This document shows, piece by piece, positions 2,120-50,748 of a DNA stretch of 64,000 bases (positions are counted from its first letter, which is position 1; the number at the start of each line of letters is the position of its first letter). The notes under the pieces are model-generated. The model made no database searches and was not told the DNA's origin. It saw only the letters and a program-made list of their open reading frames with translations. This stretch comes from a bacterium (GTDB taxonomy: Bacteria > Bacillota > Clostridia > Oscillospirales > CAG-272). The stretch covers positions 9,649 to 73,648 of the forward strand of contig CAVIJF010000003.1 of NCBI GenBank assembly GCA_963643175.1. Reading direction: 5' to 3'. The position numbers were made by a program, and so were the translations under genes.

Positions 2120-2220
2120 TCGGGGGGCAGGCGCCCCTTCCGGTACCGCAAACCTACCGGTATGCCCGTGCCGCTCCCGGCGCAGACGCAGGGATACAAG
2201 GGGCGAAGCACTTAGCCAAC
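2120..2220 (+). repeat. GC-rich intergenic repeat, truncated copy (F)
   Basis: CCTTCCGGTACCGCAAAC..CCGGCGCAGACGCAGGGATACAAGGGGCGAAGC matches the 5' half of the family. It breaks inside hairpin 1 at about 2214, next to the LRR gene stop codon. Confidence 0.7.
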
Positions 2221-3337: not shown

Positions 3338-3456
3338 TCACATGGTATCTCCGGCTTTTCCGGCATGGGAGAGTATATGACCGCAGATGCCCGTTTATAC
3401 ATATAGGGAACCCCTGAAAATTTAGCTGTCCGGCACGGACACGAGAGGAGACGCAT

Positions 3457-7424: not shown

Positions 7425-7690
7425 CCGGATGCCGGAACGCTGCCTCTGACCCGTGCCGCTCCCGGTCCAGGCGCAGGGATGCAAGGGGCGGCAGCCCCTT
7501 GCACAAGAAAGCTAAAAACTCGCTCTTCCCCTCCGGGGAAGAGCGCTCTGCAGGCGCGGGGCGGGGGGATGGGGTACCGGCAGAAAGCGGAAATCCTTGG
7601 GTGTGACCGGGGGCGCCGTTGCCGGCGTTCCGGAGGGTGCCGAAAACCGCCCGGCACCCCGATACCCCGCAAAAAGTAAGTGCCTTCCCC
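7425..7690 (+). repeat. GC-rich intergenic repeat, copy A
   Basis: The core is at 7471-7574. Hairpin 1 is TGCAAGGGGC-ggca-GCCCCTTGCA, hairpin 2 is CGCTCTTCCCC-tcc-GGGGAAGAGCG, and the tail is CGGGGGGATGGGG. Confidence 0.8.
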
Positions 7691-9135: not shown

Positions 9136-9163
9136 TCCGGGGACGCTCCGGCAAACACATAAC

Positions 9164-9206
9164 GCAAAACCCGCGGCGGGTGCTTCGCACCCGCCGCGGG
9201 TTTTGC
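9164..9206. terminator. Bidirectional intrinsic terminator (pgi / proC convergent)
   Basis: GCAAAACCCGCGGCGGGTGC-ttc-GCACCCGCCGCGGGTTTTGC. Confidence 0.8.
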
Positions 9207-9234
9207 GCACGGTTCCGCGCGGAACCGCTTCGGT

Positions 9235-10082: not shown

Positions 10083-11351
10083 TTACCGCACCTGACCGTT
10101 TCCGGTGATGATGTACTTGTAGGTGGTCAGCTCGCAAAGCCCCATGGGTCCGCGGGCATGCAGTTTCTGCGTGGAGATGCCCATCTCACAGCCGAGCCCG
10201 AATTCGCCTCCGTCGGTGAAGCGGGTGGAGACGTTGACGTAAACGGCGGCACTGTCCACGGCGGCGGTAAAGCGGCGGGCGGCGGCGTCATCGGACGTCA
10301 CGATGCACTCGCTGTGCCCGGTGGAGTGTTGCGCGATGTGTGCGATGGCGTCCTCCAACGAATCCACCACGCGCACCGCCAGAATGTAATCCAGAAATTC
10401 CGTGTCGAAATCCCGCTCGCCGGCAGGGGTTCCCGGAATGATTGCGGCGGCGGCGCTGTCCAGCCGCAGTTCGACCGGTACCTCGCCCCGCGCCGCCCGC
10501 TCGTCCACGACAGCCGCCCGGAGACGGGGCAGGAATGCGGCAGCCGCCGCGCGGTGCACCAGACAGACTTCCGCCGCATTGCAGACCGACGGGCGGGAGG
10601 TCTTGGCGTTGACCATGATGCGCACCGCCATATCCGGATCGGCGGCTTTGTCCACGTACACATGGCAGATACCGGTTCCGGTCTGGATACAGGGCACCGT
10701 TGCGTTTTCCACGCAGGCGCGGATCAGCCCTGCGCCGCCGCGCGGAATCAGCAGATCGACCAGTCCGTCTGCCGTCATCAGCTCGGTCGCGCTCGCCCGG
10801 CTGGTGTCCTCCAGCAGGTTGATGCAGTCCGGCGAAACGCCCGGAACCGCCGCCTGCGCAATGCCCGCTTTGAGCGCCGCCATGACTGCGGAACAGGTGG
10901 CGTGCGCCTCCTTGCCACAGCGTAGGACGCAGGCGTTCCCGCTCCGGACTGCCAGCGCCACCGCATCGGAGGTCACGTTGGGGCGGCTTTCGTAAATGAT
11001 GGCAATCAGACCGAACGGCACCCGCACCTTGCGGATTACCATTCCGTTCGGGCGCGTTACCTCCGAGAGCACCGCGCCGACCGGGTCGGGCAGATATGCC
11101 ACATCCCGCACGCCCTGCGCCATGCCGGCAATGCGCTTGTCCGTCAGCAGAAGTCTGTCTGCCATGACGGGCGGAATGACCCCGGCGGACGCTTCCATGT
11201 CGCGTGCGTTGGCGGCGAGGATGTCCTCCCCGTGCGCCAGCAGGCTGTCTGCCATGCAGAGCAGGAGACGCTGCTTGTCCTCCTGTCCGACCGACGCCAG
11301 CACCGCTGCCGCCGCCTTGGTTCTGACCAGTATTTCATGCGTGGTCTGCAT
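10083..11351 (-). CDS. proA: Glutamate-5-semialdehyde dehydrogenase (gamma-glutamyl phosphate reductase)
   Basis: ALDH-like protein of 422 aa with a catalytic Cys context (RPSVCNAAE). It lies between proB and proC. Confidence 0.92.
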
Positions 11352-11353
11352 TC

Positions 11354-12136
11354 TTACACCTCCCGCATCCGTTTGCCGGACAGAAATTTCGTGCCGACCG
11401 GACGCCCCTCCGCAATATCGTAGAGCAGGAGCGGGTTCTGTCCGTTGGCAATCACCATATCCACGCCGGCGTCGCCCGCAATCTGCGCCGCCCGCAGTTT
11501 CGTCACCATGCCGCCGGTGCCCAGCGCGGAGCCTTTTCCGCCTGCCAGCGACAGAATATGCCCGTCCAGCTTCTCCACGACCGGAATCAGCCGCGCCTGC
11601 GGATTGATGTGCGGGTCGGCGTCGTACAAGCCGTCAATGTCCGAGAGCAGAACCAGCAGATCGGCGCCCACGCTGGCTGCCACCGTCGCGGACAGCGTGT
11701 CGTTGTCCCCGATGCCCAGCTCCTCGGTGGATACCGTGTCGTTTTCATTGATGATGGGCAGGACGCGGAACGTAAGCAGCCGCTCCAGCGTGTTGTGGAA
11801 GTTCTCCTTGCGCACCGGGTCGCCGATGTCCGGCGCGGTAATCAGGAGCTGTGCCACTGTATGGTTGTACTCGGCGAACAGCTTGTCGTAAATATACATC
11901 AGCTCGCACTGCCCGACGGCTGCTGCTGCCTGCTTGGTTGGGGCATCCGTGGGACGCGCACCGAGGTTCAGCTTGCCGACGCCCATGGCGATGGCGCCGG
12001 AGGACACCAGAATGATTTCATGCCCGGCGTTTTTCAGGTCGCTGATGACGCGGCACAGATCCGCCACGCGGCGGATATTGGTGCGCCCGGTGGAGTGGGT
12101 CAGGGTGGAGGTTCCGATTTTAATGACGATTTTCAT
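11354..12136 (-). CDS. proB: Glutamate 5-kinase (short form, no PUA domain)
   Basis: Amino-acid-kinase fold: [28 protein letters not shown]. It abuts proA with a 2-nt gap. Confidence 0.92.
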
Positions 12137-13784: not shown

Positions 13785-15152
13785 TCATTCCACTTCCCTC
13801 GTCAGCTTCTTGATCCATGTGTACCGGTTGACCTTGATACAGCCGGGGATGCACTTGAGAACCTGATCGGCGTTGAGGCAGCAGATGACCGCCACGGGGG
13901 ACCACTTGAAAACGAACGCCGCCAACAGGGACAGCGGAATCACGATGACCCAGATGTTGATGAGGTCGTTCCAGAATACGAATTTTGCGTCGCCGCCGCC
14001 CCGGATAAGCCCGATGATGGTCGGCATTTCATAGGCAGTGCCGAAGCCGGTGAAGCACAGAACCAGAATAAACTGCTCCGCAAGGCGGTAGGTTTCGTCC
14101 GACATATCGTACAGCGACAGGATGGGGTAGCGCAGGGCGAACAGCAGGAGACTGGTGCACAGCCCGATTCCGAGAAACATGAGCTGGAGCGTGCGGGTAT
14201 ATGCCTTGATTTTGTCCATCTGCCCGCTGCCGATGGCGGTTCCGATCAGGATAGATGCCGCCGATGCCGCGCCGACCGAGGCGACTTTAAGCGTCTGGAA
14301 CAGCGTGGATGCCACCGAGTTGGCGGCGATGGCGTTGGCGTTCATGTGCCCTAAAATGGCGGTCTGGAGTGCCACTGCCACGCCGAACATCAGGGAGGTG
14401 AACAGCATGGGGCGGACGAGCCGCAGGAAATCCTTCATCAGCTCCCGGTCGGGGTGGAAGATGTCGGCTATCCGCCAGCCGAGCTTCCTGTCTGCCTTCA
14501 GGGCAAACACCAGCACCACGGTGAATTCCATGGCGCGTGCCGCCGTTGTGGCGATGGCGGCGCCGGTGGCGCCCAGCGCCGGGGCACCCAGATGCCCGCC
14601 AATCAGCAGGTAGTTGAGTGAGATGTTGACGATCAGTGCCGCCAGCGAGACCCAGAAGCCGATGCGCACGGTCTCCACACTCCGGAGCATGGCGAGCAGA
14701 ATCTGACTCAGGGCGAAGAGGAGGTAGGAGTATTTCATGACACGCAGATACTCCACGCCGGCGGCGCGGATGGCGGGGTCGGGCGTGAAAATGGCGAGGA
14801 TGCCCTCCGGTGCCACGCAGGCGGCGACAAACAGGAACAGGGATATACCCGCGCCGACCAGAAACGCGCCGGGCAGAAATTTGCGGATGGCATCCGGACG
14901 GTTCTTGCCCCAGTACTGACTTCCCAGCACCACGATGCCGTCCCCCACGCCCATCATGAGCTGCTGGAACACGAACTGAACCTGATTGACGGCGCTGACG
15001 CCGGACATGGCGATTTCACTGTATGCGCCGATCATCACGTTGTCGGCAAGATTGACGCCGAGCGTGATGATATTGTACAGAACCAGCATGAACCAGATGG
15101 AAAAGAAGCGCTTATAGAACGCCGGATCGCGGACGATTGTGTCGGACTTCAT
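13785..15152 (-). CDS. MATE family efflux transporter
   Basis: 455 aa with about 12 TM helices and a MatE-type duplicated architecture. Confidence 0.85.
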   Translation of the reverse strand: MKSDTIVRDPAFYKRFFSIWFMLVLYNIITLGVNLADNVMIGAYSEIAMSGVSAVNQVQFVFQQLMMGVGDGIVVLGSQYWGKNRPDAIRKFLPGAFLVGAGISLFLFVAACVAPEGILAIFTPDPAIRAAGVEYLRVMKYSYLLFALSQILLAMLRSVETVRIGFWVSLAALIVNISLNYLLIGGHLGAPALGATGAAIATTAARAMEFTVVLVFALKADRKLGWRIADIFHPDRELMKDFLRLVRPMLFTSLMFGVAVALQTAILGHMNANAIAANSVASTLFQTLKVASVGAASAASILIGTAIGSGQMDKIKAYTRTLQLMFLGIGLCTSLLLFALRYPILSLYDMSDETYRLAEQFILVLCFTGFGTAYEMPTIIGLIRGGGDAKFVFWNDLINIWVIVIPLSLLAAFVFKWSPVAVICCLNADQVLKCIPGCIKVNRYTWIKKLTREVE

Positions 15153-15529: not shown

Positions 15530-15870
15530 GGCGGTGCCGGTGCAGGGGTGCCGGGGACAAACCCCTTCCGGTACCGCAAACTGTCCGGCAGGCAGTGCTC
15601 CTTCCGGTATAGGCACCGGGGTACCGGGGTGTTCCCCGAAGCAGTGCCGCCTCCGGCGCCGATGCGGGGTTGCAGGGGGCGAAGCCCCTTGCAAAAGAAA
15701 GCAAAGAATCTCCCCCCCCTTCCCCGGAGCGGGCAAACGATTTGCACGGGGGCATGGCAAAACAGGCAACGCGGGGGCACTTCTCCGCCGGAAACCGGGG
15801 CGGCAGGATAATACCGTGCCGCCGGGAAATATTCCCCGCCATCCCCCGACACCGAAAAAGCAGCAATTGT
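15530..15870 (+). repeat. GC-rich intergenic repeat, copy B (hairpin 2 and tail degenerate)
   Basis: CCTTCCGGTACCGCAAAC module, then hairpin 1 TGCAGGGGGC-gaa-GCCCCTTGCA at 15671-15693, then AAAGAAAGCAAAGAATCTCCCCCCCCTTCCCC. Confidence 0.75.
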
Positions 15871-23959: not shown

Positions 23960-24190
23960 TCCGGCGGCTTTTGCTGCCGGCGCAGTTGCAGGGACGCCGG
24001 GGGCGATGCCCCCGGCAAAATAAAGTAGAGGTTTCCCCCTTCCCCCTCCGGGGAAGAGCGCTCTGCGAGCGCGGGTCGGGGGGATGGGGGCAACAAAACT
24101 GGTTCGGGGCAGGGAAAAACCGGAGACGCGGGGTACAGGCACCCCTCCCGGTATCGGAAACACCGGAAAGTCCCCACTCCCACCGCAATA
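23960..24190 (+). repeat. GC-rich intergenic repeat, copy C
   Basis: The core is at 23981-24090. Hairpin 1 is the variant GCCGGGGGC-gat-GCCCCCGGC, the linker is AAAATAAAGTAGAG, hairpin 2 is CTTCCCC..GGGGAAGAGCG, and the tail is CGGGGGGATGGGG. Confidence 0.8.
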
Positions 24191-24703: not shown

Positions 24704-26059
24704 ATGGCGATGTTTTCAAGTCTCAGTGAGAAGCTGGAGAATGCATTCCGGAAATTCCGCAGCCGCGGAAAGCTGACCGAAGCCGATGTCAAGGCGGGAA
24801 TGCGGGAAATCAAGCTCGCCCTGCTGGAGGCGGACGTCAACTTCAAGGTTGTCAAGGACTTTGTACGCATCGTGTCCGAACGCGCGGTGGGGACGGAAGT
24901 GATGGAATCCCTCATGCCCGGACAGCAGATTGTCAAAATCGTGGACGAGGAACTGACCCGCCTGATGGGCGGTACGCAGTCCAAGTTGGAAATCTCGCCC
25001 AAGCCGCCGACGGTTATTATGATGGTCGGTCTGCAGGGCGCCGGTAAAACCACCCATGCCGGCAAGCTCGCGGGAATGTACAAGAAGCAGGGCAAGCGCC
25101 CGCTGCTGGTTGCCTGCGATGTCTACCGCCCGGCGGCAATCAAACAGTTGGAAGTGCTGGGCGAAAAGCTGGACATTCCGGTATTCCAGATGGGCGACAG
25201 GGAAGACCCTGTCCGCATTGCCGCCGAAGGCGTGAAATTCGCCGTGCAGAAGGGCTATGACATGGTGTTCATAGACACCGCCGGACGGCTGCAGATTGAC
25301 GAGGCGCTCATGAACGAGCTGATCCGCATCAAGCAGACGGTCAACCCGACGGAAATTCTGCTGACGGTGGATGCCATGATCGGACAGGAGTCCGTCAATG
25401 TCGCGGAAACCTTCAACAATCTGCTGGACATCACCGGCGTGATTCTGACCAAGCTGGATGGCGACACGCGGGGCGGTGCTGCCCTGTCCATCCGCTACGT
25501 CATCGGCAAGCCGATTAAATTCGTCGGCATCGGGGAAAAGCTGGACGCCATCGAGCCGTTCTACCCCGACCGCATGGCGAACCGCATTCTCGGAATGGGC
25601 GACGTGCTGACGCTTATCGACAAGGCACAGCAGCAGTTTGACGAGAAAAAAGCGGTGGAGCTGGAGCAGAAAATCCGTCAGTCCACTTTCACGCTGGATG
25701 ACTATCTGGATCAGTTTGAGCAGCTCAAAAACATGGGCTCGCTGGAACAGCTTGCCGGCATGATTCCCGGCGTCAAGCCCGGCGCACTCAAGGACGCGCA
25801 GATTGACGAGAAGGCGCTGGCGCACCAGCAGGCAATCATCCGTGCCATGACAGCCGATGAACGCCGCCGCCCGGATGTTGTCCTCAATGCCAGCCGCAAG
25901 AAGCGCATCGCCGCCGGAAGCGGTACGACGGTGGAGGAAATCAACAAGCTGCTCAAACAGTTTGAGCAGATACGCAGGCTGATGAAACAGTTTGCGGACA
26001 TGGGCGGAAAGCCCGGCAGAAAGGGACGCCCTGGCAGGGGAATGCGGTTCCCGTTCTGA
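24704..26059 (+). CDS. ffh: Signal recognition particle protein Ffh
   Basis: N-terminus [15 protein letters not shown], GTPase motifs [15 protein letters not shown] and TKLDGD, and a Met-rich M domain. Confidence 0.95.
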
Positions 26060-30550: not shown

Positions 30551-30625
30551 GGCCCCATAGTCAAGCGGCTAAGACGTCGCCCTCTCACGGCGAAGGCGTG
30601 GGTTCGATTCCCGCTGGGGTCACCA
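30551..30625 (+). tRNA. tRNA-Glu (anticodon CUC), CCA encoded
   Basis: Hand-folded cloverleaf. Acceptor GGCCCCA/TGGGGTC, anticodon stem TCGCC/GGCGA, loop CT-CTC-AC, T-arm GGGTTCGATTCCC, 3' ACCA. Confidence 0.9.
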
Positions 30626-30689: not shown

Positions 30690-30955
30690 TGCTGTTCCGG
30701 CGCCCGGCGGGGTGTGCCTTGCATCCCTGCACCGGAACAGTTTACGGGGTGGGTTCGCCCTGAGAGCCACTGCTCGCCCGGTGTGGCGCAGGGACTATGG
30801 CTTCCGGCACCTGCAAGGGAACCGGAAACCTTACGGTGTGTCAGCATCTTCCCGGCGCAGGCACAGGGGTGCCGGGGCGAAGCCCCCGGCGAAATAAAGC
30901 AGAAGTCGCCCCCCTTCCCTGGAGGGGAAGGGGGCGGGGGGATGGGGCATCCTCT
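30690..30955 (+). repeat. GC-rich intergenic repeat, copy D
   Basis: The core is at 30854-30947. Hairpin 1 is the variant GCCGGGGC-gaa-GCCCCCGGC, the linker is GAAATAAAGCAGAAG, hairpin 2 is CCCCCCTTCCC-tgga-GGGGAAGGGGG, and the tail is CGGGGGGATGGGG. Confidence 0.8.
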
Positions 30956-35695: not shown

Positions 35696-35809
35696 TTCCC
35701 GGTCGCGTGCACAATAAATGGCAGGGAAGCGAGATACGCAACACGCGAAAAGGAGGATACTCGCATGGAGCAGAACCAATCACGCGACCTGCCGCCGGAG
35801 GAGAACACC

Positions 35810-36090
35810 GACCGGCAGGCACCGCTATTCCCGGGCGGGGAGGCGGACGGGGCACCGGGGCAAGCTCCTTCCGGCGCCGCAAACTGCCCGGTACGCAGTG
35901 CCGCATGGTCGCAGTCGCGGGGGTGCAAGGGGCGAAGCCCCTTGCATAAGATAGCAAAAATCTCCCCCTTCCCCGCTGGGGAAGGGGGTCGGGGGGATGG
36001 GGCCAAAGAAAGTCATACAGGAGCCGGGAAAACCGCCGGGCGCGAAAACCGCCAACGCACAAAAAAGCAACGCCTCCAACGCAAAAATTT
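35810..36090 (+). repeat. GC-rich intergenic repeat, copy E (closest to consensus)
   Basis: The core is at 35911-36002. Hairpin 1 is TGCAAGGGGC-gaa-GCCCCTTGCA, the linker is TAAGATAGCAAAAATCT, hairpin 2 is CCCCCTTCCCC-gctg-GGGGAAGGGGG, and the tail is TCGGGGGGATGGGG. Confidence 0.8.
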
Positions 36091-36100
36091 TCAAAACCCC

Positions 36101-36129
36101 TTGACAAACAGGGAAAAGTGTGGTATACT
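36101..36129 (+). promoter_or_regulatory. Sigma-70-type promoter of infC-rpmI-rplT
   Basis: CCCCTTGACA-17 nt-TATACT with an extended -10 TG. Confidence 0.6.
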
Positions 36130-36134
36130 ACCCC

Positions 36135-36385
36135 TGCAATGAAGCGAAGCTGCCTGGCTTCCACCGCACCGCCGCAGAGCGCGTCCGGTCAATATCCGAT
36201 TCCGGATCCCCCGGACTTCGGAGATGGAGAGCGTTTTCCCGCATCCGGGAGAACTGCCGCGCCGGGCTGTGTGCTTCGGGGCGGTTTATTTTTTTCGGAA
36301 TTGCCGGGGACGCCCTGCCGGATAAATCGGCGATTCCCTGAAATTCCGTACCGAAAATCAGACAAGCAAGAGGAGGTGCGTACCC
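36135..36385 (+). promoter_or_regulatory. Long infC leader with internal attenuator terminator (L20-leader-like cis-regulator)
   Basis: About 250 nt lie between the promoter and the infC start. The hairpin CCGCGCCG...CGGGGCGG followed by TTTATTTTTTT at 36257-36295 sits 90 nt before the RBS. Confidence 0.5.
36311..36347 (+). promoter_or_regulatory. Conserved leader hairpin motif (copy 2), between the attenuator and the infC RBS
   Basis: CGCCCTGCCGGATAAATCGGCGATTCCCTGAAATTCC. See copy 1 at 1905-1945. Confidence 0.35.
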
Positions 36386-36922
36386 ATAGGCACGAATGCA
36401 AAGGAGGCCCAGACCCTCATCAATGAGGCTATTGATGCACGGGAGGTTCGGGTCGTCAACGCAGAGGGACAGCCGCTCGGGATTATGAGTTCCCGTGAGG
36501 CGCTCAGACTGGCTTACGACAAGGATATGGATCTGGTTCTGATTGCTCCCCAGGCGCAGCCGCCGGTCTGCAAGATTATGGACTACGGCAAGTACTGCTT
36601 CGAGAAGCAGAAGCGCGAGAAGGAAGCCAAGAAGAAGCAGCAGGTCGTCGAGCTGAAGGAAATCCAGATTTCCTACCGCATCGACACGCATGATTATGAA
36701 ACCAAGCTCAATCAGGCGCGTAAGTTCCTGTCCGCCGGCAATAAGGTCCGGGTGGTCATGAAGTTCCGCGGACGTGAGATGAGCCATATGGCAATGGGAC
36801 GGGACGTTCTGGAGAAGTTTCTGACGGATACCCACGAGGTGGGCGTCTGCGACAAGAAGCCGGTGCTGGACGGACGTTTCATGAGCATGGTCATCAATCC
36901 GCTCCCCAACAAAGCCAAGTAA
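36386..36922 (+). CDS. infC: Translation initiation factor IF-3, predicted non-canonical ATA start
   Basis: In-frame extension upstream of the track ORF gives (M)GTNAKEAQTLINEAIDAREVRVVNAEGQPLGIMSSREALRLA, a typical IF-3 N-domain. AGGAGGT lies 8 nt before the ATA, and no canonical start is in frame. Confidence 0.85.
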   Translation: MGTNAKEAQTLINEAIDAREVRVVNAEGQPLGIMSSREALRLAYDKDMDLVLIAPQAQPPVCKIMDYGKYCFEKQKREKEAKKKQQVVELKEIQISYRIDTHDYETKLNQARKFLSAGNKVRVVMKFRGREMSHMAMGRDVLEKFLTDTHEVGVCDKKPVLDGRFMSMVINPLPNKAK

Positions 36923-48600: not shown

Positions 48601-49331
48601 TGGCGGCGGCAATGCACTGGGAACCGGTCACGCCGGAGAACCGCCGGGAGGTGCTGGCGACCCAGACCGACTGCCGCAACCGCCTGCGGGCGCTGGGGCA
48701 CTTCGACCCGGATGCGGTGGAAAAGTACCGGGAGGTCTACGGGCGCTGTGAAGCCATGCGCACGCAGATAGCGGATCTGGAGAAGTCCCGCGCCGAGCTG
48801 ACCGGCATCATCTCCAGACTGGAGGAGGAGATGAAGGTCGCCTTCGCAACGGCGTTTGATGCCATCAACGAGAATTTCGGGAAAACTTTTGCCGAGCTGT
48901 TCGGCGGCGGTTCTGCCGAGGTGTCGCTGACCGACCCGGACAATATTCTGGAGAGCGGCATTGAAATCAAGGCGGCGCCGCCTGGGAAAATCATCAAGAA
49001 TCTGATGCAGCTGTCCGGCGGCGAGCAGGCGTTTGTCGGTGTGGCACTCTTTTTCGCCATTCTCAAGGTAAATCCGACGCCGTTCTGCATTCTGGACGAG
49101 ATTGAAGCGGCGCTGGACGAGGTCAACGTGGAACGGTTGGCGCAGTACATACGGCGTTACGCGGACGAGACGCAGTTCATCATGATTACGCACCGCCGCG
49201 GCACTATGGCGGCGGCAACGCGCCTGTACGGCGTCACCATGCCGGAGCACGGCATTTCCAAGGTGCTGACGCTGGATGTGGCGGATATTTCCAAGAACAA
49301 GGAGGGAAGCTGGAATGGGCTTTTTAGCTAA
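45660..49331 (+). CDS. smc: Chromosome segregation protein SMC
   Basis: N-terminal Walker A GPNGSGKSNI, long coiled coils, a hinge, and C-terminal LSGGEQA and ILDEIEAALD. It has a GTG start after AAGGAG. Confidence 0.95.
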   Translation: MYLQSIELQGFKSFPDRTKLDFEPSAVSGTDGRGVTVIVGPNGSGKSNIADAMRWVLGEISSKTLRGSKMEDVIFGGADSRRPMGYAEVSVTFDNTSEFCRLDCPYDRVTVTRRYFRSGESEYLINRKPVRLRDIYELFLNTGIGRDGYSIIGQGRIAEMISRKSEERRSVFEDASGIARYRVRKTEAQRRLDTTEANMVRVRDVFSEVEAQVGPLAREAEKAKKGIVLLEARRQADISLWLYDSGRLLGEIDVAATTRSHAEFDLSQAQDALQSLEVQNQRLTEMNRGSRETAGQLTEEITAVSDGLHRLDSEYRVRESHILHAGEDIAAAEEATRAADAARDAARAQEHDHREQEASLRCRLAELEAEYAAGTEEQEALRRRIGELSERIDVTGADIRAREAQAVDVRVRLSVLENARNSGSDRGSGILSDMERYEETDATLAADVDRRQKSVDGYTASLNQNDSDLRAAENALTVCNEQYGQAHEALNTAKLRRDSVAQRIQTFRSMEEHYEGYTGAVRFVMSRYAAGRLSGFGGEPCGTVYGPLSQIIQVEKAYVTAVETALGANLQHIVVENEATAKAAMYALKRENAGRATFFPLTSMRGQNPTPEMTQAAGYPGYVAVADALLTCDDRFRAVLSSLLGRTVVFDTIDHATAMAKALRYRVRVVTLDGQQINVGGSFTGGSTSQRGGALSRAAEVRSLAEEQKQLEKQVGEAEQALTRLRNAVREAEEERDAKQDRRDLLRVILGNETAALNQAKAKRDANRTLLDKLRDDSDRLLAESRQYEQDMENLRAEEAALTASIGEIRAVRQQADADRGDAEDALNSRTEKQTGLYIALSETRKDADTQATFADACAEQADRAEADAAAARDRIAALTGNREDYLREQEENRRLYADGEKKLAALSADKSRADEDSAQYEARLTELREQINRKYEDKETLFRAFTTADTKLNGLKAEKEKLDAKLHEDYEMTLPEAQTMAAAMHWEPVTPENRREVLATQTDCRNRLRALGHFDPDAVEKYREVYGRCEAMRTQIADLEKSRAELTGIISRLEEEMKVAFATAFDAINENFGKTFAELFGGGSAEVSLTDPDNILESGIEIKAAPPGKIIKNLMQLSGGEQAFVGVALFFAILKVNPTPFCILDEIEAALDEVNVERLAQYIRRYADETQFIMITHRRGTMAAATRLYGVTMPEHGISKVLTLDVADISKNKEGSWNGLFS

Positions 49332-50748
49332 GCTGTTCGGGAAAAAGAACAGGAATGAAGAGGTGCCGGCGGAGCAGCTGCCGGCAGAGCAGGCGTCTGC
49401 GGATTCCGACGAGGAAGGCACGCTGACCGCCGAGGAGGAAGCAGCCGCCGAGGCGGCGGAGCAGGCGTTCTTCGCGGAGCATCCGGAGATTGCCGGGGAA
49501 GACATCTTAGACGAGGAACTGAGACTGGAGCAGGAGCAACAGGAGCGGGACGCTGCCGGGGAAGCGGAGAACGCAGAGAGCACGGAGAGCACGGAGAGAG
49601 CCGGGGACATGGCAGAACCCGCAGAAGAACCCGCAGAAGAACCCGCAGAAGAACCCGCAGAAGAACCCGCAGAAGAACCCGCAGAAGAACCCGCAGAAGA
49701 ACCCGCAGAAGAACCCGCGGAAGAACCCGCGGAAGAACCCGCGGAAGAGTCCGCGGAAGAGCCGACAGAAGAGCCAGTGGAGCCCGAACCGGCGGATATG
49801 CCTGCCGAGGCAGTAGCCGCCGAGGATACGACTACCAAGAAGTCGTTCTGGGGGCGCCTCAGGGCGGGACTGACCAAGACGCGCAACGCGCTGTTCGCCC
49901 CGGTGGACAGTCTGCTCAAGAGCTTTACCAAGGTGGACGAGGAGCTTCTGGAGGAGTTGGAGGAGATTCTCATCAGCGCCGATGTGGGTATGGGCGCGAC
50001 CGAGGAGATACTGGATCAGCTCCGTGCGCGCATCAAGGACGGGCGGCTCCGGGAAAAGGAGCAGGTCATGGACGCACTGCGCGAAATCATGACCGGCATG
50101 ATAGGGGAGAGCCAGCCCCTGCGCCTTGAGACATGCCCCAGCGTGATTCTGGTCATCGGCGTCAACGGCGCCGGCAAAACGACCTCCATCGGCAAGATTT
50201 CCAAGCGGCTGAAACTGCAGGGCAAGCGGGTTGTCGTGGCGGCGGCGGATACCTTCCGCGCGGCGGCGATTGACCAGCTGGCGGTCTGGTGCGAGCGTGC
50301 CGGCGTCGAGATGGTGAAGCAGAGCGAGGGCAGCGACCCTGCCGCCGTGGTGTTCGACGCCATCGCGGTTGCCAGAAAGCGTGCGGCAGACGTGCTGATT
50401 ATCGACACCGCCGGACGTCTGCAGAACAAGAAGAACCTGATGAACGAGCTTGCCAAGATTGACCGCGTTATCGACCGGGAGCTGCCGGGAGCCAGCCGGG
50501 AAACCCTGCTGGTGCTGGACGCGACCACGGGACAGAACGCCGTTTCGCAGGCTAAGGAGTTCAGTCAGGCGTCAAAGATTACCGGCATTACGCTGAACAA
50601 ACTGGATGGCACCGCCAAGGGCGGCATCGTCATCGCCATCCGGCAGGAGCTGGGCATTCCGGTCAAATTCATCGGCGTGGGCGAGAAGATCGACGATATG
50701 CAGGAGTTTGACGCGGCGGACTTCGTCCGGGCACTGTTCGGGGAATGA
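49315..50748 (+). CDS. ftsY: Signal recognition particle receptor FtsY with repetitive acidic A-domain
   Basis: NG domain motifs GVNGAGKTTS, DTAGRL and NKLDGT. The ATG at 49315 overlaps the smc 3' end. Confidence 0.93.
   Translation: MGFLAKLFGKKNRNEEVPAEQLPAEQASADSDEEGTLTAEEEAAAEAAEQAFFAEHPEIAGEDILDEELRLEQEQQERDAAGEAENAESTESTERAGDMAEPAEEPAEEPAEEPAEEPAEEPAEEPAEEPAEEPAEEPAEEPAEESAEEPTEEPVEPEPADMPAEAVAAEDTTTKKSFWGRLRAGLTKTRNALFAPVDSLLKSFTKVDEELLEELEEILISADVGMGATEEILDQLRARIKDGRLREKEQVMDALREIMTGMIGESQPLRLETCPSVILVIGVNGAGKTTSIGKISKRLKLQGKRVVVAAADTFRAAAIDQLAVWCERAGVEMVKQSEGSDPAAVVFDAIAVARKRAADVLIIDTAGRLQNKKNLMNELAKIDRVIDRELPGASRETLLVLDATTGQNAVSQAKEFSQASKITGITLNKLDGTAKGGIVIAIRQELGIPVKFIGVGEKIDDMQEFDAADFVRALFGE
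49612..49776 (+). repeat. 12-bp coding tandem repeat (GCAGAAGAACCC)n encoding (AEEP)n in FtsY
   Basis: Eight perfect units, two units with a single A-to-G change, three degenerate units and a partial leading unit. Confidence 0.95.

What the first reader, a model, noticed from the sequence alone, without database searches (positions are those of the whole stretch)
7425..7690. Family of GC-rich two-hairpin intergenic repeats, six copies in 64 kb, all in one orientation
Non-coding gaps share a core of about 95 nt. They lie at 2120-2220 (truncated), 7425-7690, 15530-15870, 23960-24190, 30690-30955 and 35810-36090. The core runs CCGGCGCAG..GCAGGG, hairpin 1 (consensus TGCAAGGGGC-GAA-GCCCCTTGCA), an A-rich linker (AAGAAAGCAAAAA or AAATAAAGCAGA), hairpin 2 (CCCCCTTCCCC-N4-GGGGAAGGGGG) and the tail CGGGGGGATGGGG. 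Shuffled shorter modules such as CCTTCCGGTACCGCAAAC flank the core. The G-rich tail is on the plus strand in every copy, whatever the direction of the flanking genes. In four copies the core ends 99-136 bp upstream of a near-consensus promoter (pgi, the 105-aa ORF, ylxM-ffh, infC). The ORFs the track draws across them are Arg/Gly/Pro-rich and have no RBS. I cannot assign the family to a named REP, BIME, MITE or Rfam element.
Basis: seen in the sequence. Interest (0 to 1): 0.7.

Follow-up and report, generated by a model that had tools for sequence, protein, structure and literature searches.

The report
Mobile hairpin repeats between genes
The six GC-rich two-hairpin repeats are real copies of an uncatalogued family of small repeated DNA elements between genes, which has multiplied in scattered lineages of two distant bacterial phyla and is gained and lost between strains, so it is not a control element tied to the promoters beside it.

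Summary
A profile search finds six copies, all on the + strand, at the stated places and nowhere else in 64 kb. No Rfam family reaches its threshold.

The same architecture recurs in gut Oscillospiraceae/Clostridia MAGs. There it forms tandem arrays of up to six copies, on both strands. It also recurs in subsurface Dehalococcoidia, at more than 120 metagenome loci. The architecture is:
- a 5' G-run
- hairpin 1 around GGGGC-GAA-GCCCC
- an A/T-rich linker
- hairpin 2, CCCCTTCCCC/GGGGAAGGGG
- the tail GGGGGAT(A/G)GGG

The outer stem of hairpin 1 covaries strongly. Four species close to the window organism (78 kb) and three Dehalococcoidia relatives (65 kb) have no copy. The ylxM-ffh promoter is conserved in relatives that lack the element, so it predates the insertion. 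Near-identical strains differ by element-bearing indels and by array copy number, including inside a riboflavin operon.

Across loci there is no orientation rule relative to genes (30 versus 29 in tandem contexts). Against local GC skew there is none in the high-GC group and only a weak lean in the low-GC group.

Best reading: a new REP/BIME/MITE-like, non-autonomous structured repeat. How it moves is unknown. Interest is moderate. The cross-phylum sequence conservation is the unusual part.

The parts
2134..2219 (+). Copy 1, truncated. It has the 5' module CCCCTTCCGGTACCGCAAAC... (2134-2165) and the 5' half of the core with a degenerate hairpin 1 (about 2194-2216). It lacks hairpin 2 and the tail. 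It abuts the stop codon of the minus-strand BspA-type LRR gene (2222-2965).
   Evidence: nhmmer 2171-2219, E=1.2e-6. Module family D6. Sequence. LRR_5 domain.
7456..7575 (+). Copy 2, the finding's own coordinates, between GDPD(+) and pgi(+). Hairpin 1 is 7480-7503 (TGCAAGGGGC-GGCA-GCCCCTTGCA). Hairpin 2 is 7521-7545. An optional extra GC hairpin module lies at about 7546-7561. The tail CGGGGGGATGGGG is 7562-7574.
   Evidence: nhmmer E=1.6e-29. Pattern match. Tail. Fold -66.1 kcal/mol, z=-3.9. Hairpin 2 reads as a terminator-like site on the minus strand.
15532..15593 (+). Partial 5' fragment plus a CCCCTTCCGGTACCGCAAAC module, upstream of copy 3. This shows the mosaic build.
   Evidence: nhmmer weak hit 15532-15567, E=0.025. 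Repeat families D5 and D6.
15647..15750 (+). Copy 3, between rpsU(-) and the 105-aa ORF(+). Hairpin 1 (15671-15693) is intact. Hairpin 2 and the tail are degenerate.
   Evidence: nhmmer E=6e-25. Sequence. The fold is no better than shuffles, z=-0.6.
23970..24089 (+). Copy 4, between the gyrB/parE-like gene(-) and ylxM-ffh(+). Hairpin 1 is 23996-24016 (the GCCG/CGGC stem variant). Hairpin 2 is about 24039-24056. The optional module GCGCTCTGCGAGCGC is 24058-24072. The tail is 24077-24089.
   Evidence: nhmmer E=2.7e-30. Sequence. The same optional module occurs in copies from other species. The element is absent upstream of ylxM in four relatives.
30846..30948 (+). Copy 5, between a tRNA(+) with its terminator and a hexapeptide-transferase gene(+). 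Hairpin 1 is about 30871-30890. Hairpin 2 is about 30908-30935. The tail is 30935-30947.
   Evidence: nhmmer E=1.6e-21. tRNA at 30551-30622. Sequence.
35904..36003 (+). Copy 6, between PEPCK(+) with its own terminator and infC(+). Hairpin 1 is 35924-35946. Hairpin 2 is 35964-35988. The tail is 35990-36002. This is the best-preserved copy.
   Evidence: nhmmer E=8e-26.. Fold -54.8 kcal/mol, z=-3.5. Weak full-length Rfam hit to RF02937, 19.9 bits against a threshold of 58.6.

Best explanation
The six sequences are copies of a modular, structured extragenic repeat. It is a non-autonomous, REP/BIME/MITE-like element that lives in intergenic DNA.

Its core has five parts:
- a 5' G-run
- hairpin 1, whose apex is the very stable GCGNAGC/GCGNNAGC mini-hairpin motif
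- an A/T-rich linker
- hairpin 2 (CCCCTTCCCC / GGGGAAGGGG)
- a G-rich tail that nearly repeats the 3' arm of hairpin 2

Shown here:
- The family multiplies in bursts in particular lineages of at least two phyla.
- It forms tandem arrays.
- It is gained and lost between near-identical strains.
- It lands in any intergenic context, in either orientation.
- The promoters next to the window copies are older than the copies.

Inferred:
- Copies spread through single-stranded DNA hairpin intermediates handled by an enzyme encoded elsewhere in the genome, of the HUH/RAYT type or a terminal-inverted-repeat transposase.
- Arrays grow and shrink by slippage or unequal recombination.
- Once transcribed, the GC-rich hairpins act as passive barriers, as E. 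coli REPs do. They protect upstream RNA from 3' exonucleases, and in some copies they partly terminate transcription.

The uniform + orientation in this window is best read as chance plus local tolerance. It is not a mechanism.
For: The family is real and structured:
- Six copies in the window.
- 268 copies in 135 fetched loci.
- On 73 non-redundant copies, 93.4% of stem cells pair. The four to five outer pairs of hairpin 1 switch among GC, AU, CG and UA. No shuffle out of 500 reaches the observed covariation, and slid controls fall to about 70% paired.

Cross-phylum and patchy:
- Hits in the Oscillospiraceae MAG CP091718, two Clostridia MAGs and two Dehalococcoidales MAGs.
- At least 120 metagenome loci with GC content of 42-67%.
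- The MutL protein next to the abundant low-GC type is closest to Dehalococcoidales/Chloroflexota proteins.
- No copy in 78 kb from four species with 85-91% identical Ffh.
- No copy in 65 kb from three Dehalococcoidia relatives.

Dynamic:
- L055 and L057 are 95-97% identical, yet differ by three 200-500 nt indels that carry elements. Two of them lie between ribE|ribBA and ribBA|ribH, which are adjacent or overlapping in outgroups. L055 has 7 copies where L057 has 2.
- Array copy number differs between L025 and L056 (3 versus 2), and array length between L001 and L028.
- A 477-nt higher-order tandem array of 2.9 units holds six cores.

No gene association:
- Flanking genes are unrelated housekeeping genes.
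- In tandem contexts, 30 copies share the genes' strand and 29 oppose it.

The promoter is independent of the element: the ylxM promoter is conserved in five species, and only the window carries the element.

The hairpin-1 loop variants GAA, GGA, GTCA, GGTA, GCTA, GTTA and GCCA all fit GCGNAGC/GCGNNAGC. This is the nuclease-resistant mini-hairpin DNA motif reviewed in PMC13037366.
Against: - No mobilising enzyme was found. A crude HUH/Y1 motif screen of 380 ORFs in the fetched loci found none, and no whole genome could be searched.
- No clean target-site duplication was seen at the polymorphic sites.
- The terminal inverted repeat of the three-hairpin type is only weakly above shuffles.
- G:T wobbles (61) and A:C mismatches (57) are balanced, so the folding strand cannot be named.
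- Primary-sequence conservation across phyla is unusual for REP-type elements. It could mean a conserved host function.
- One locus (upstream of a carA-like gene; L061, L083, L091) keeps a copy across 73-83% identical genomes, with compensatory stem changes. That hints at selection at some sites.
Confidence: 0.6

Rival explanations
1. A selected transcriptional insulator or terminator. The element is kept because it stops transcription running between neighbouring units, and this is why it sits between genes and upstream of promoters.
For: - In copies 2 and 6, hairpin 2 read on the minus strand is followed by a T-run and is flagged as terminator-like.
- In a subset of low-GC copies, hairpin 1 is followed directly by T4-6. 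The linker then runs T-run then A-run, which is the layout of a bidirectional terminator.
- Many low-GC copies start within 1-27 nt of a stop codon.
Against: - The T-run is missing in most subfamilies. The commonest Dehalococcoidia type has ...CTCTCTTACCTACAC. The gut type has an A-rich linker with the T-run about 10 nt from the stem on the other strand.
- In the window, the terminator-like direction is antisense to both flanking genes (copies 2 and 6), where nothing needs stopping.
- Copies lie in sense orientation between cistrons of a riboflavin operon, so they cannot be efficient terminators there.
- Relatives do without the element.
Confidence: 0.12
2. A structured RNA, either a multicopy small RNA or a cis-acting leader. 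It would be a distant relative of the Rfam Clostridiales-2 motif, working at the RNA level, for example by a switch in which the C-rich arm pairs with either of two G-rich segments that resemble a Shine-Dalgarno sequence.
For: - Full-length but weak matches to RF02937 on the correct strand for three copies (16.3, 16.3 and 19.9 bits).
- Strong stem covariation.
- RNAalifold offers an alternative pairing of the C-arm with the tail.
- In several low-GC loci the tail (for example AAGGGGGTGAGGT or GGGTGAT) lies 5-12 nt before an ATG, where it would serve as the ribosome-binding site.
Against: - The scores are far below the gathering score of 58.6, and only hairpin 1 aligns.
- No sigma-70-like promoter lies inside the units. 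The window promoters lie downstream of the element.
- Copies occur equally in both orientations relative to the genes.
- Tandem arrays, indel polymorphism and absence from close relatives do not fit a dedicated RNA gene or leader.
- Wobble counts do not favour one strand.
Confidence: 0.1
3. A non-B DNA element used by the host. The mini-hairpin plus four G-tracts (a potential G-quadruplex) on one strand would act on single-stranded DNA. It could be a priming or pausing signal on the lagging-strand template, or a nucleoid or gyrase site. That would explain the single orientation in the window.
For: - All six window copies have the G-rich strand on the strand with rising cumulative GC skew.
- 108 of 177 copies carry a canonical G3+N1-7 x4 motif from hairpin 2's 3' arm through the tail.
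- The GCGNAGC/GCGNNAGC loops match a motif reported at phage and plasmid single-strand initiation sites.
- Low-GC loci lean towards the G-rich strand lying on the positive-skew strand (33:14).
Against: - High-GC loci show no such bias (28:31).
- Opposite orientations occur within one intergenic region (L004, L005, L105).
- The commonest subtype has only three G3+ tracts.
- Close relatives lack the element altogether, so it cannot be an essential replication signal.
- An ordinary terminator in the window (9162-9208) also uses a GCGAAGC loop, so the loop may simply be the stable cap this genome favours.
Confidence: 0.1

Closest known systems
REP/BIME elements of enterobacteria and pseudomonads (repetitive extragenic palindromes, REPINs, mobilised by RAYT transposases)
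   Same: - Short GC-rich imperfect palindromes confined to extragenic DNA.
- Many copies.
- Mosaic combination with other short motifs.
- Clusters and arrays.
- Presence/absence differences between strains without target-site duplications.
- Found between cistrons of operons and just after stop codons.
- Stems keep pairing through compensatory changes.
   Different: - No GTAG-type 5' tetranucleotide.
- Two different hairpins plus a G-rich tail in a fixed order, rather than one palindrome.
- Arrays are direct rather than alternating.
- No RAYT gene identified.
- The core sequence is shared between Bacillota and Chloroflexota, whereas REP families are usually species-specific.
Bacterial MITEs and modular repeats (Correia elements of Neisseria; BOX, RUP and SPRITE of Streptococcus pneumoniae)
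   Same: - 100-200 nt, non-coding and intergenic.
- Modular (boxA-B-C-like), with optional modules.
- The three-hairpin Dehalococcoidia form is an imperfect fold-back of about 190 nt with similar inverted ends.
- Patchy, burst-like distribution.
   Different: - Terminal inverted repeats are weak or absent in the two-hairpin form found in the window.
- No target-site duplication seen.
- No parent insertion sequence known.
Rfam RF02937, Clostridiales-2 RNA motif (Weinberg et al. 2017, PMC5737381)
   Same: The consensus GGGggUGcaGgGGgagaaacCCcCugC resembles the 5' G-run plus hairpin 1 (GGGGGUGCAAGGGGCGAAGCCCCUUGC). The matches are on the right strand and span the model end to end.
   Different: - 16-20 bits against a gathering score of 58.6.
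- The 29-nt middle of the model is skipped and hairpin 2 does not align.
- The supplementary description of the motif was not available, so a common origin is only a lead.
Mini-hairpin DNA motif d(GCGNAGC)/d(GCGNNAGC) (reviewed in PMC13037366)
   Same: The apex of hairpin 1 is GCGAAGC in most copies. The variants GCGGAGC, GCGTCAGC, GCGGTAGC, GCGCTAGC, GCGTTAGC and GCGCCAGC all fit the motif.
   Different: That motif is a physical-chemistry observation, with examples at phage origins, ssiA and N4 promoters. It is not a repeat family. Most loops here were fixed as GAA by the search pattern, so only the 23 free loops are informative. Fifteen of them fit on the G-rich strand and three on the other strand.

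Membership tests
Rfam RF02937 Clostridiales-2 | Covariance-model score at or above the curated gathering score (58.6 bits) | tested here: not met
   19.9 bits for window 35911-35989. 16.3 bits for two copies in L007. No hit at the gathering threshold in the window or in 20 related loci.
REP / REPIN (RAYT-mobilised) | Short imperfect palindromes, many copies, confined to extragenic DNA | tested here: met
   Six copies in 64 kb, all intergenic. 268 copies in 135 loci. Stems of 10-11 bp with covariation.
REP / REPIN (RAYT-mobilised) | Conserved 5' tetranucleotide (GTAG-type) next to the palindrome, the RAYT cleavage and recognition site | tested here: not met
   In the alignments of 38 and 73 copies, the 5' flank is a G-run (GGGGAT, GGGGTG or GGGAGT) followed by 2-4 variable bases. 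There is no GTAG.
REP / REPIN (RAYT-mobilised) | A cognate RAYT (Y1/HUH transposase) gene in the same genome, flanked by the repeats | not testable with these tools
   Only windows and loci were available, not whole genomes. A crude HUH...Y motif screen of 380 ORFs of 110-330 aa found none. ORFs flanked by inverted copies are housekeeping genes.
REP / REPIN (RAYT-mobilised) | Copies typically paired in inverted orientation (REPIN doublets) | tested here: inconclusive
   Window copies and gut arrays are direct, not inverted. The three-hairpin Dehalococcoidia form is an imperfect fold-back centred on hairpin 1.
MITE | Terminal inverted repeats | tested here: inconclusive
   About 36-nt ends at roughly 75% complementarity in the three-hairpin type. 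Alignment scores are 19-26, against shuffle maxima of 20-27. None in the two-hairpin window copies.
MITE | Target-site duplication flanking insertions | tested here: not met
   Three filled-versus-empty site comparisons (L055 against L057) show replacement or microhomology rather than a clean duplication.
MITE | A related autonomous insertion sequence with the same ends | not tested
   No transposase gene was seen next to copies. No collection-wide search with the ends was made.
Intrinsic (Rho-independent) terminator | GC-rich hairpin followed directly by a U-tract on the transcribed strand | tested here: inconclusive
   Met on the minus strand for copies 2 and 6. Met on the plus strand for a subset of low-GC copies. 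Absent in the commonest subtypes.
G-quadruplex-forming motif | Four G3+ tracts separated by loops of 1-7 nt | tested here: inconclusive
   Present in 108 of 177 copies, including window copies 5 and 6. The commonest low-GC subtype has three G3+ tracts plus GG. Folding itself cannot be tested here.
   The ylxM promoter is conserved in five species, but the element is present only in the window. No copy in 78 kb of four relatives.

The most novel reading that the evidence does not exclude
The element may be the DNA substrate of a mobilisation or host system that has not been recognised. Nearly identical core sequences occur in gut Oscillospiraceae and in subsurface Dehalococcoidia: GGGGCGAAGCCCC, CCCCTTCCCC/GGGGAAGGGG and GGGGGAT(A/G)GGG. 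That would mean one conserved protein reads a mini-hairpin followed by a hairpin/G-quadruplex switch on single-stranded DNA or RNA. The element would have been transferred between phyla together with that protein. Alternatively it has been domesticated, for example as a portable ribosome-binding, RNA-stabilising or priming module.
Probability: 0.12. Interest if true: 0.75.

Novelty: new member of a known kind. Interest (0 to 1): 0.45.

Why it matters
Repeats of this kind break metagenome assemblies. Many copies found here sit at contig ends. They also seed spurious gene calls, and one such ORF is annotated in the source assembly. They can change the expression of neighbouring genes.

A profile for this family would let annotators mask it in gut Oscillospiraceae and in Dehalococcoidia genomes. 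The family gives strain-level markers, because copies and array lengths differ between near-identical strains. It also offers a test case for how a small structured repeat keeps almost the same sequence in two phyla. If a partner enzyme exists, the conserved hairpins and tail say what it must recognise.

For this window the practical message is negative. The elements should not be annotated as regulators of pgi, ylxM-ffh or infC.

Tried and rejected
1. Replication-linked orientation (an IS200/IS605-style strand bias). Rejected as a family rule. Opposite orientations occur within single intergenic regions, and the high-GC loci show no link to local GC skew.

2. 'The tail always points to the next gene start'. 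This looked good in the first Oscillospiraceae loci. It dissolved once divergent contexts were recognised as uninformative and tandem contexts were counted, at 30 versus 29.

3. Protein coding. The reading frame through the repeat differs between copies. A codon-usage gene caller skips these ORFs. The one ORF with an RBS has no full-length relatives.

4. Known RNA family. Rfam at the gathering threshold finds nothing. At permissive E-values there is only the weak RF02937 resemblance.

5. Phage origin. Only 3 hits in the IMG/VR viral contig collection (2.9 million contigs), all at or near the ends of the fetched loci.

6. Naming the strand from G:U wobbles. The counts are balanced.

7. Literature. 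No paper matched the core sequences or repeat families in these taxa. The supplement of the Rfam motif paper is not held.

8. A first look-up of pgi failed because the longest ORF start is wrong. The true start is 7801.

9. The Dehalococcoidales hits of the first genome scan were at first dismissed as chance, because BLAST showed no similarity. They are real members.
Full report
**1. The observation**

A profile built from the copies and run with nhmmer on both strands finds six significant matches, all on the + strand:
- 2171-2219 (truncated)
- 7456-7575
- 15647-15750
- 23970-24089
- 30846-30948
- 35904-36003

There is also a weak fragment at 15532-15567. Nothing is found in 36-64 kb. The hairpin-1 pattern never occurs in shuffles. 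The 13-nt tail is exact in four copies. Shorter modules such as CCCCTTCCGGTACCGCAAAC are repeated too.

Single-strand folding gives the two hairpins for the well-preserved copies, with z-scores of -3.5 to -3.9. The fold is equally good on the opposite strand. Rfam at its curated thresholds finds only a tRNA in the window.

**2. Gene context in the window**

Pfam scans and a codon-usage gene caller give this map:

| Copy | Left neighbour | Right neighbour |
|---|---|---|
| 1 | (after the stop of the LRR gene) | BspA-type LRR gene (-) |
| 2 | GDPD (+) | pgi (+) |
| 3 | rpsU (-) | 105-aa ORF (+) |
| 4 | gyrB/parE-like gene (-) | ylxM-ffh (+) |
| 5 | tRNA (+) | hexapeptide transferase (+) |
| 6 | PEPCK (+) | infC (+) |

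So in all five full copies the gene on the tail side is on the + strand.

Promoter-like sites lie 99-153 nt downstream of the cores. Cumulative GC skew rises across the whole window.

**3. The family outside the window**

One exact-pattern scan of GTDB species genomes found the element in three kinds of genome:
- five times in the 1.78-Mb Oscillospiraceae MAG CP091718.1
- in two human-gut Clostridia MAGs
- in two Dehalococcoidales MAGs

The window is not from CP091718, because only the repeats match. Its own contig is CAVHZF010000001.1 of GCA_963640205.1.

In the Oscillospiraceae and Clostridia loci the copies are clustered. One run of six cores is a 477-nt higher-order tandem repeat of 2.9 units. 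Both strands are used there.

A metagenome scan used a pattern that did not include the tail. About two thirds of the loci listed have 42-55% GC and come from sediment or subsurface samples. Almost every hit nevertheless carries the tail GGGGGAT(A/G)GG, so the hits share the whole architecture and not only the pattern. The MutL protein encoded beside the abundant low-GC type is closest to proteins named Dehalococcoidales, Dehalococcoidia or Chloroflexota.

The viral contig collection gave only three hits. Twenty diverse loci gave no Rfam family at the gathering threshold. Many environmental copies sit at contig ends, as expected of a repeat that breaks assemblies.

**4. Anatomy and structure**

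Across 73 non-redundant copies the order of parts is constant:
- a G-run (GGGGAT, GGGGTG or GGGAGT)
- hairpin 1 with an invariant GGGGC...GCCCC inner stem
- an A/T-rich linker
- hairpin 2, (C)CCCCTTCCC(C) - loop - (G)GGGAAGGGG(G)
- 2-5 nt of spacer
- GGGGGAT(A/G)GG(G)

The outer four to five pairs of hairpin 1 differ between subfamilies yet stay complementary: GCAA/TTGC, GCCG/CGGC, AGAG/CTCT, AAGA/TCTT and TCGAA/TTCGA. Overall 93.4% of cells pair. No shuffle out of 500 reaches the observed covariation, and sliding the partner by one to three columns drops pairing to 50-73%.

G:T and A:C counts are equal (61 versus 57), so the data do not say which strand folds.

Optional modules recur across species. 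An example is the extra hairpin GCGCTCTGCGAGCGC, seen in window copies 2 and 4 and in several MAGs.

The loops that the search pattern did not fix are mostly GGA or G-N-N-A. Hairpin-1 apexes therefore read GCGNAGC or GCGNNAGC. This is the 'mini-hairpin DNA' motif, known for extreme thermal stability and nuclease resistance (PMC13037366).

From the 3' arm of hairpin 2 through the tail, 108 of 177 copies have four G3+ tracts with short loops, which is a potential G-quadruplex. The commonest subtype has three.

The three-hairpin Dehalococcoidia form is an imperfect fold-back of about 190 nt centred on hairpin 1. Its two ends are similar in inverted orientation, but the statistics for these ends are weak.

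**5. Is it tied to genes, promoters or replication?**

The answer is no on all three, with one weak exception for replication.

*Genes.* Only tandem gene contexts are informative about orientation. Across all fetched loci, 30 copies there share the genes' strand and 29 oppose it. Divergent intergenic regions are favoured over convergent ones, 33 to 9. That fits larger, more tolerant spaces. Flanking genes are unrelated housekeeping genes.

*Promoters and orthologous positions.* I fetched about 21 kb around ffh (13.7 kb for the locus cut by a contig end) from four species whose Ffh is 85-91% identical to the window's. The same profile that recovers the five full window copies finds none in those 78 kb. 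An alignment of the region upstream of ylxM shows the promoter TTGACAAA-N17-TATAATCTGTAAAGC conserved in all five species. Similarity stops just upstream of the -35 box. The promoter is ancestral, and the element arrived upstream of it in the window's lineage only.

Three Dehalococcoidia with MutL 77-79% identical to that of locus L055 likewise have no copy in 65 kb. L055 itself has seven copies in 13 kb.

*Replication.* The G-rich strand shows no link to local GC skew in the high-GC loci (28:31). In the low-GC loci there is a lean of 33:14, but those copies are not independent.

**6. Evidence that copies come and go**

L055 and L057 are 95-97% identical over about 8 kb. They differ by three indels of 200-500 nt that contain elements. 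Two of these lie between ribE|ribBA and ribBA|ribH. In L057, and in more distant relatives, these genes are separated by 0-70 nt. So copies sit in sense orientation inside an operon.

Array copy number or length differs between strains that are 98% identical. L025 has three copies where L056 has two, and the array in L001 is 569 nt against 460 nt in L028.

In one copy, hairpin 2 carries a nested 28-nt palindrome in its loop, flanked by a GAAGG repeat. Its ortholog lacks this insert. No clean target-site duplication was seen at the filled and empty sites.

One counter-example points to retention. A copy immediately upstream of a carA-like gene is kept in three genomes that are 73-83% identical there, with compensatory changes in hairpin 1.

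**7. What it most likely is and does**

*Shown:* this is a modular, structured, extragenic repeat family with a burst-like, patchy distribution, tandem amplification and strain-level gain and loss. That is the biology of REP/BIME elements and bacterial MITEs.

*Inferred:*
- Spread goes through hairpins in single-stranded DNA, handled by an enzyme encoded elsewhere.
- Arrays arise by slippage or unequal recombination.
- In transcripts, the hairpins act as passive barriers to exonucleases, and in some copies as partial terminators.

Hairpin 2 of copies 2 and 6 reads as a terminator on the minus strand. A subset of low-GC copies has hairpin 1 followed by a T-run. Most subtypes lack this feature, so termination is not the family's defining activity.

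No partner enzyme was found, and no complete genome could be searched. This is the main gap.

**8. Comparison with known families**

The element fails the membership test for Rfam Clostridiales-2, scoring 16-20 bits against 58.6. The resemblance of the 5' G-run and hairpin 1 to that model's consensus is still worth following up.

It shares the defining lifestyle of REP/BIME elements. It lacks the GTAG-type 5' signature, an identified RAYT gene and the usual inverted pairing.

It resembles MITEs in size and modularity, and in one subtype in fold-back form. It lacks demonstrable target-site duplications and a known parent element.

Full-text searches found no description of the sequence or of repeat families in these taxa.

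**9. Verdict**

The finding is real, and the family appears uncatalogued. The two features that made it look special in the window do not hold for the family. These were the uniform orientation and the spacing from strong promoters.

The unusual feature is the near-identity of the core between gut Oscillospiraceae and subsurface Dehalococcoidia. It suggests either horizontal transfer with a partner enzyme or a shared structural constraint.

I rate it a new member of a known kind, the structured extragenic repeats, with moderate interest (0.45). The chance that a new kind of recognition system lies behind it is about 12%.

Noticed in passing
window 9162-9208 (- strand): A 20-bp perfect-stem terminator between pgi(+) and the proC-like gene(-) also has a GCGAAGC apex (GGGTGCGAAGCACCC). 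This genome may simply favour the loop as a stable hairpin cap, independent of the repeat family.
   Followed up: no
window 35765-36142 (+): A 125-codon ORF with a strong AAGGAGG ribosome-binding site 8 nt upstream reads through copy 6 and the infC promoter. The source assembly calls it as a gene (P0241). Its only relatives among 5.8 billion proteins are 12 partial, domain-less ORFs that match the repeat part. It is probably spurious.
   Followed up: partly
window 49578-49800 (+): About 14 tandem copies of a 12-nt unit (AGAACCCGCAGA, coding for an acidic Glu/Pro/Ala repeat) lie inside the ORF 49315-50748. That ORF shares an SRP-GTPase-like stretch with ffh (25259-25320 versus 50389-50450), so it is probably ftsY with a repetitive N-terminal domain.
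   Followed up: no
window 36130-36480 (+): There are about 350 nt between the infC promoter (36101-36129) and the IF3 coding region. The stretch contains a GC-rich hairpin followed by a T-run near 36270-36295, which looks like a leader or attenuator. Rfam reported no L20-leader match.
   Followed up: no
L027 11588-11635 (- strand): A copy of the element lies just downstream of the 3' end of a 23S rRNA gene (11674-12018), in the long spacer before the 5S rRNA (10164-10281). It would be part of the rRNA precursor.
   Followed up: no
L055 about 3420-3450, compared with L057 7448-7523: A 28-nt palindromic unit (CCTGCCCTTGAGGGCTCAAGCCCGAAGG) is inserted in the loop of hairpin 2 and flanked by a GAAGG repeat. 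The orthologous copy in the sister strain lacks it. This points to a second, smaller palindromic repeat family in these Dehalococcoidia that nests inside the first.
   Followed up: partly
L055 5979-6046, L014 7339-7424, L127 727-808: A few copies carry hairpin 1 with the loop reversed (GGGGCTTCGCCCC or GGGGCTTTGCCCC) while the rest of the element keeps its orientation. This looks like inversion of the palindrome apex at the DNA level.
   Followed up: no
L021 4033-4118 and 4114-5589: One gut-type copy lies directly upstream of a gene with a phage capsid domain (Phage_capsid_3), so copies also occur at or inside prophage regions.
   Followed up: no
L010 7187-8571, compared with window 13785-15152: The MatE efflux gene is intact in the window (455 aa). 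In a 99.7% identical assembly of the same species it is split into ORFs of 317 and 144 aa. This is either a strain-level frameshift or an assembly error.
   Followed up: no
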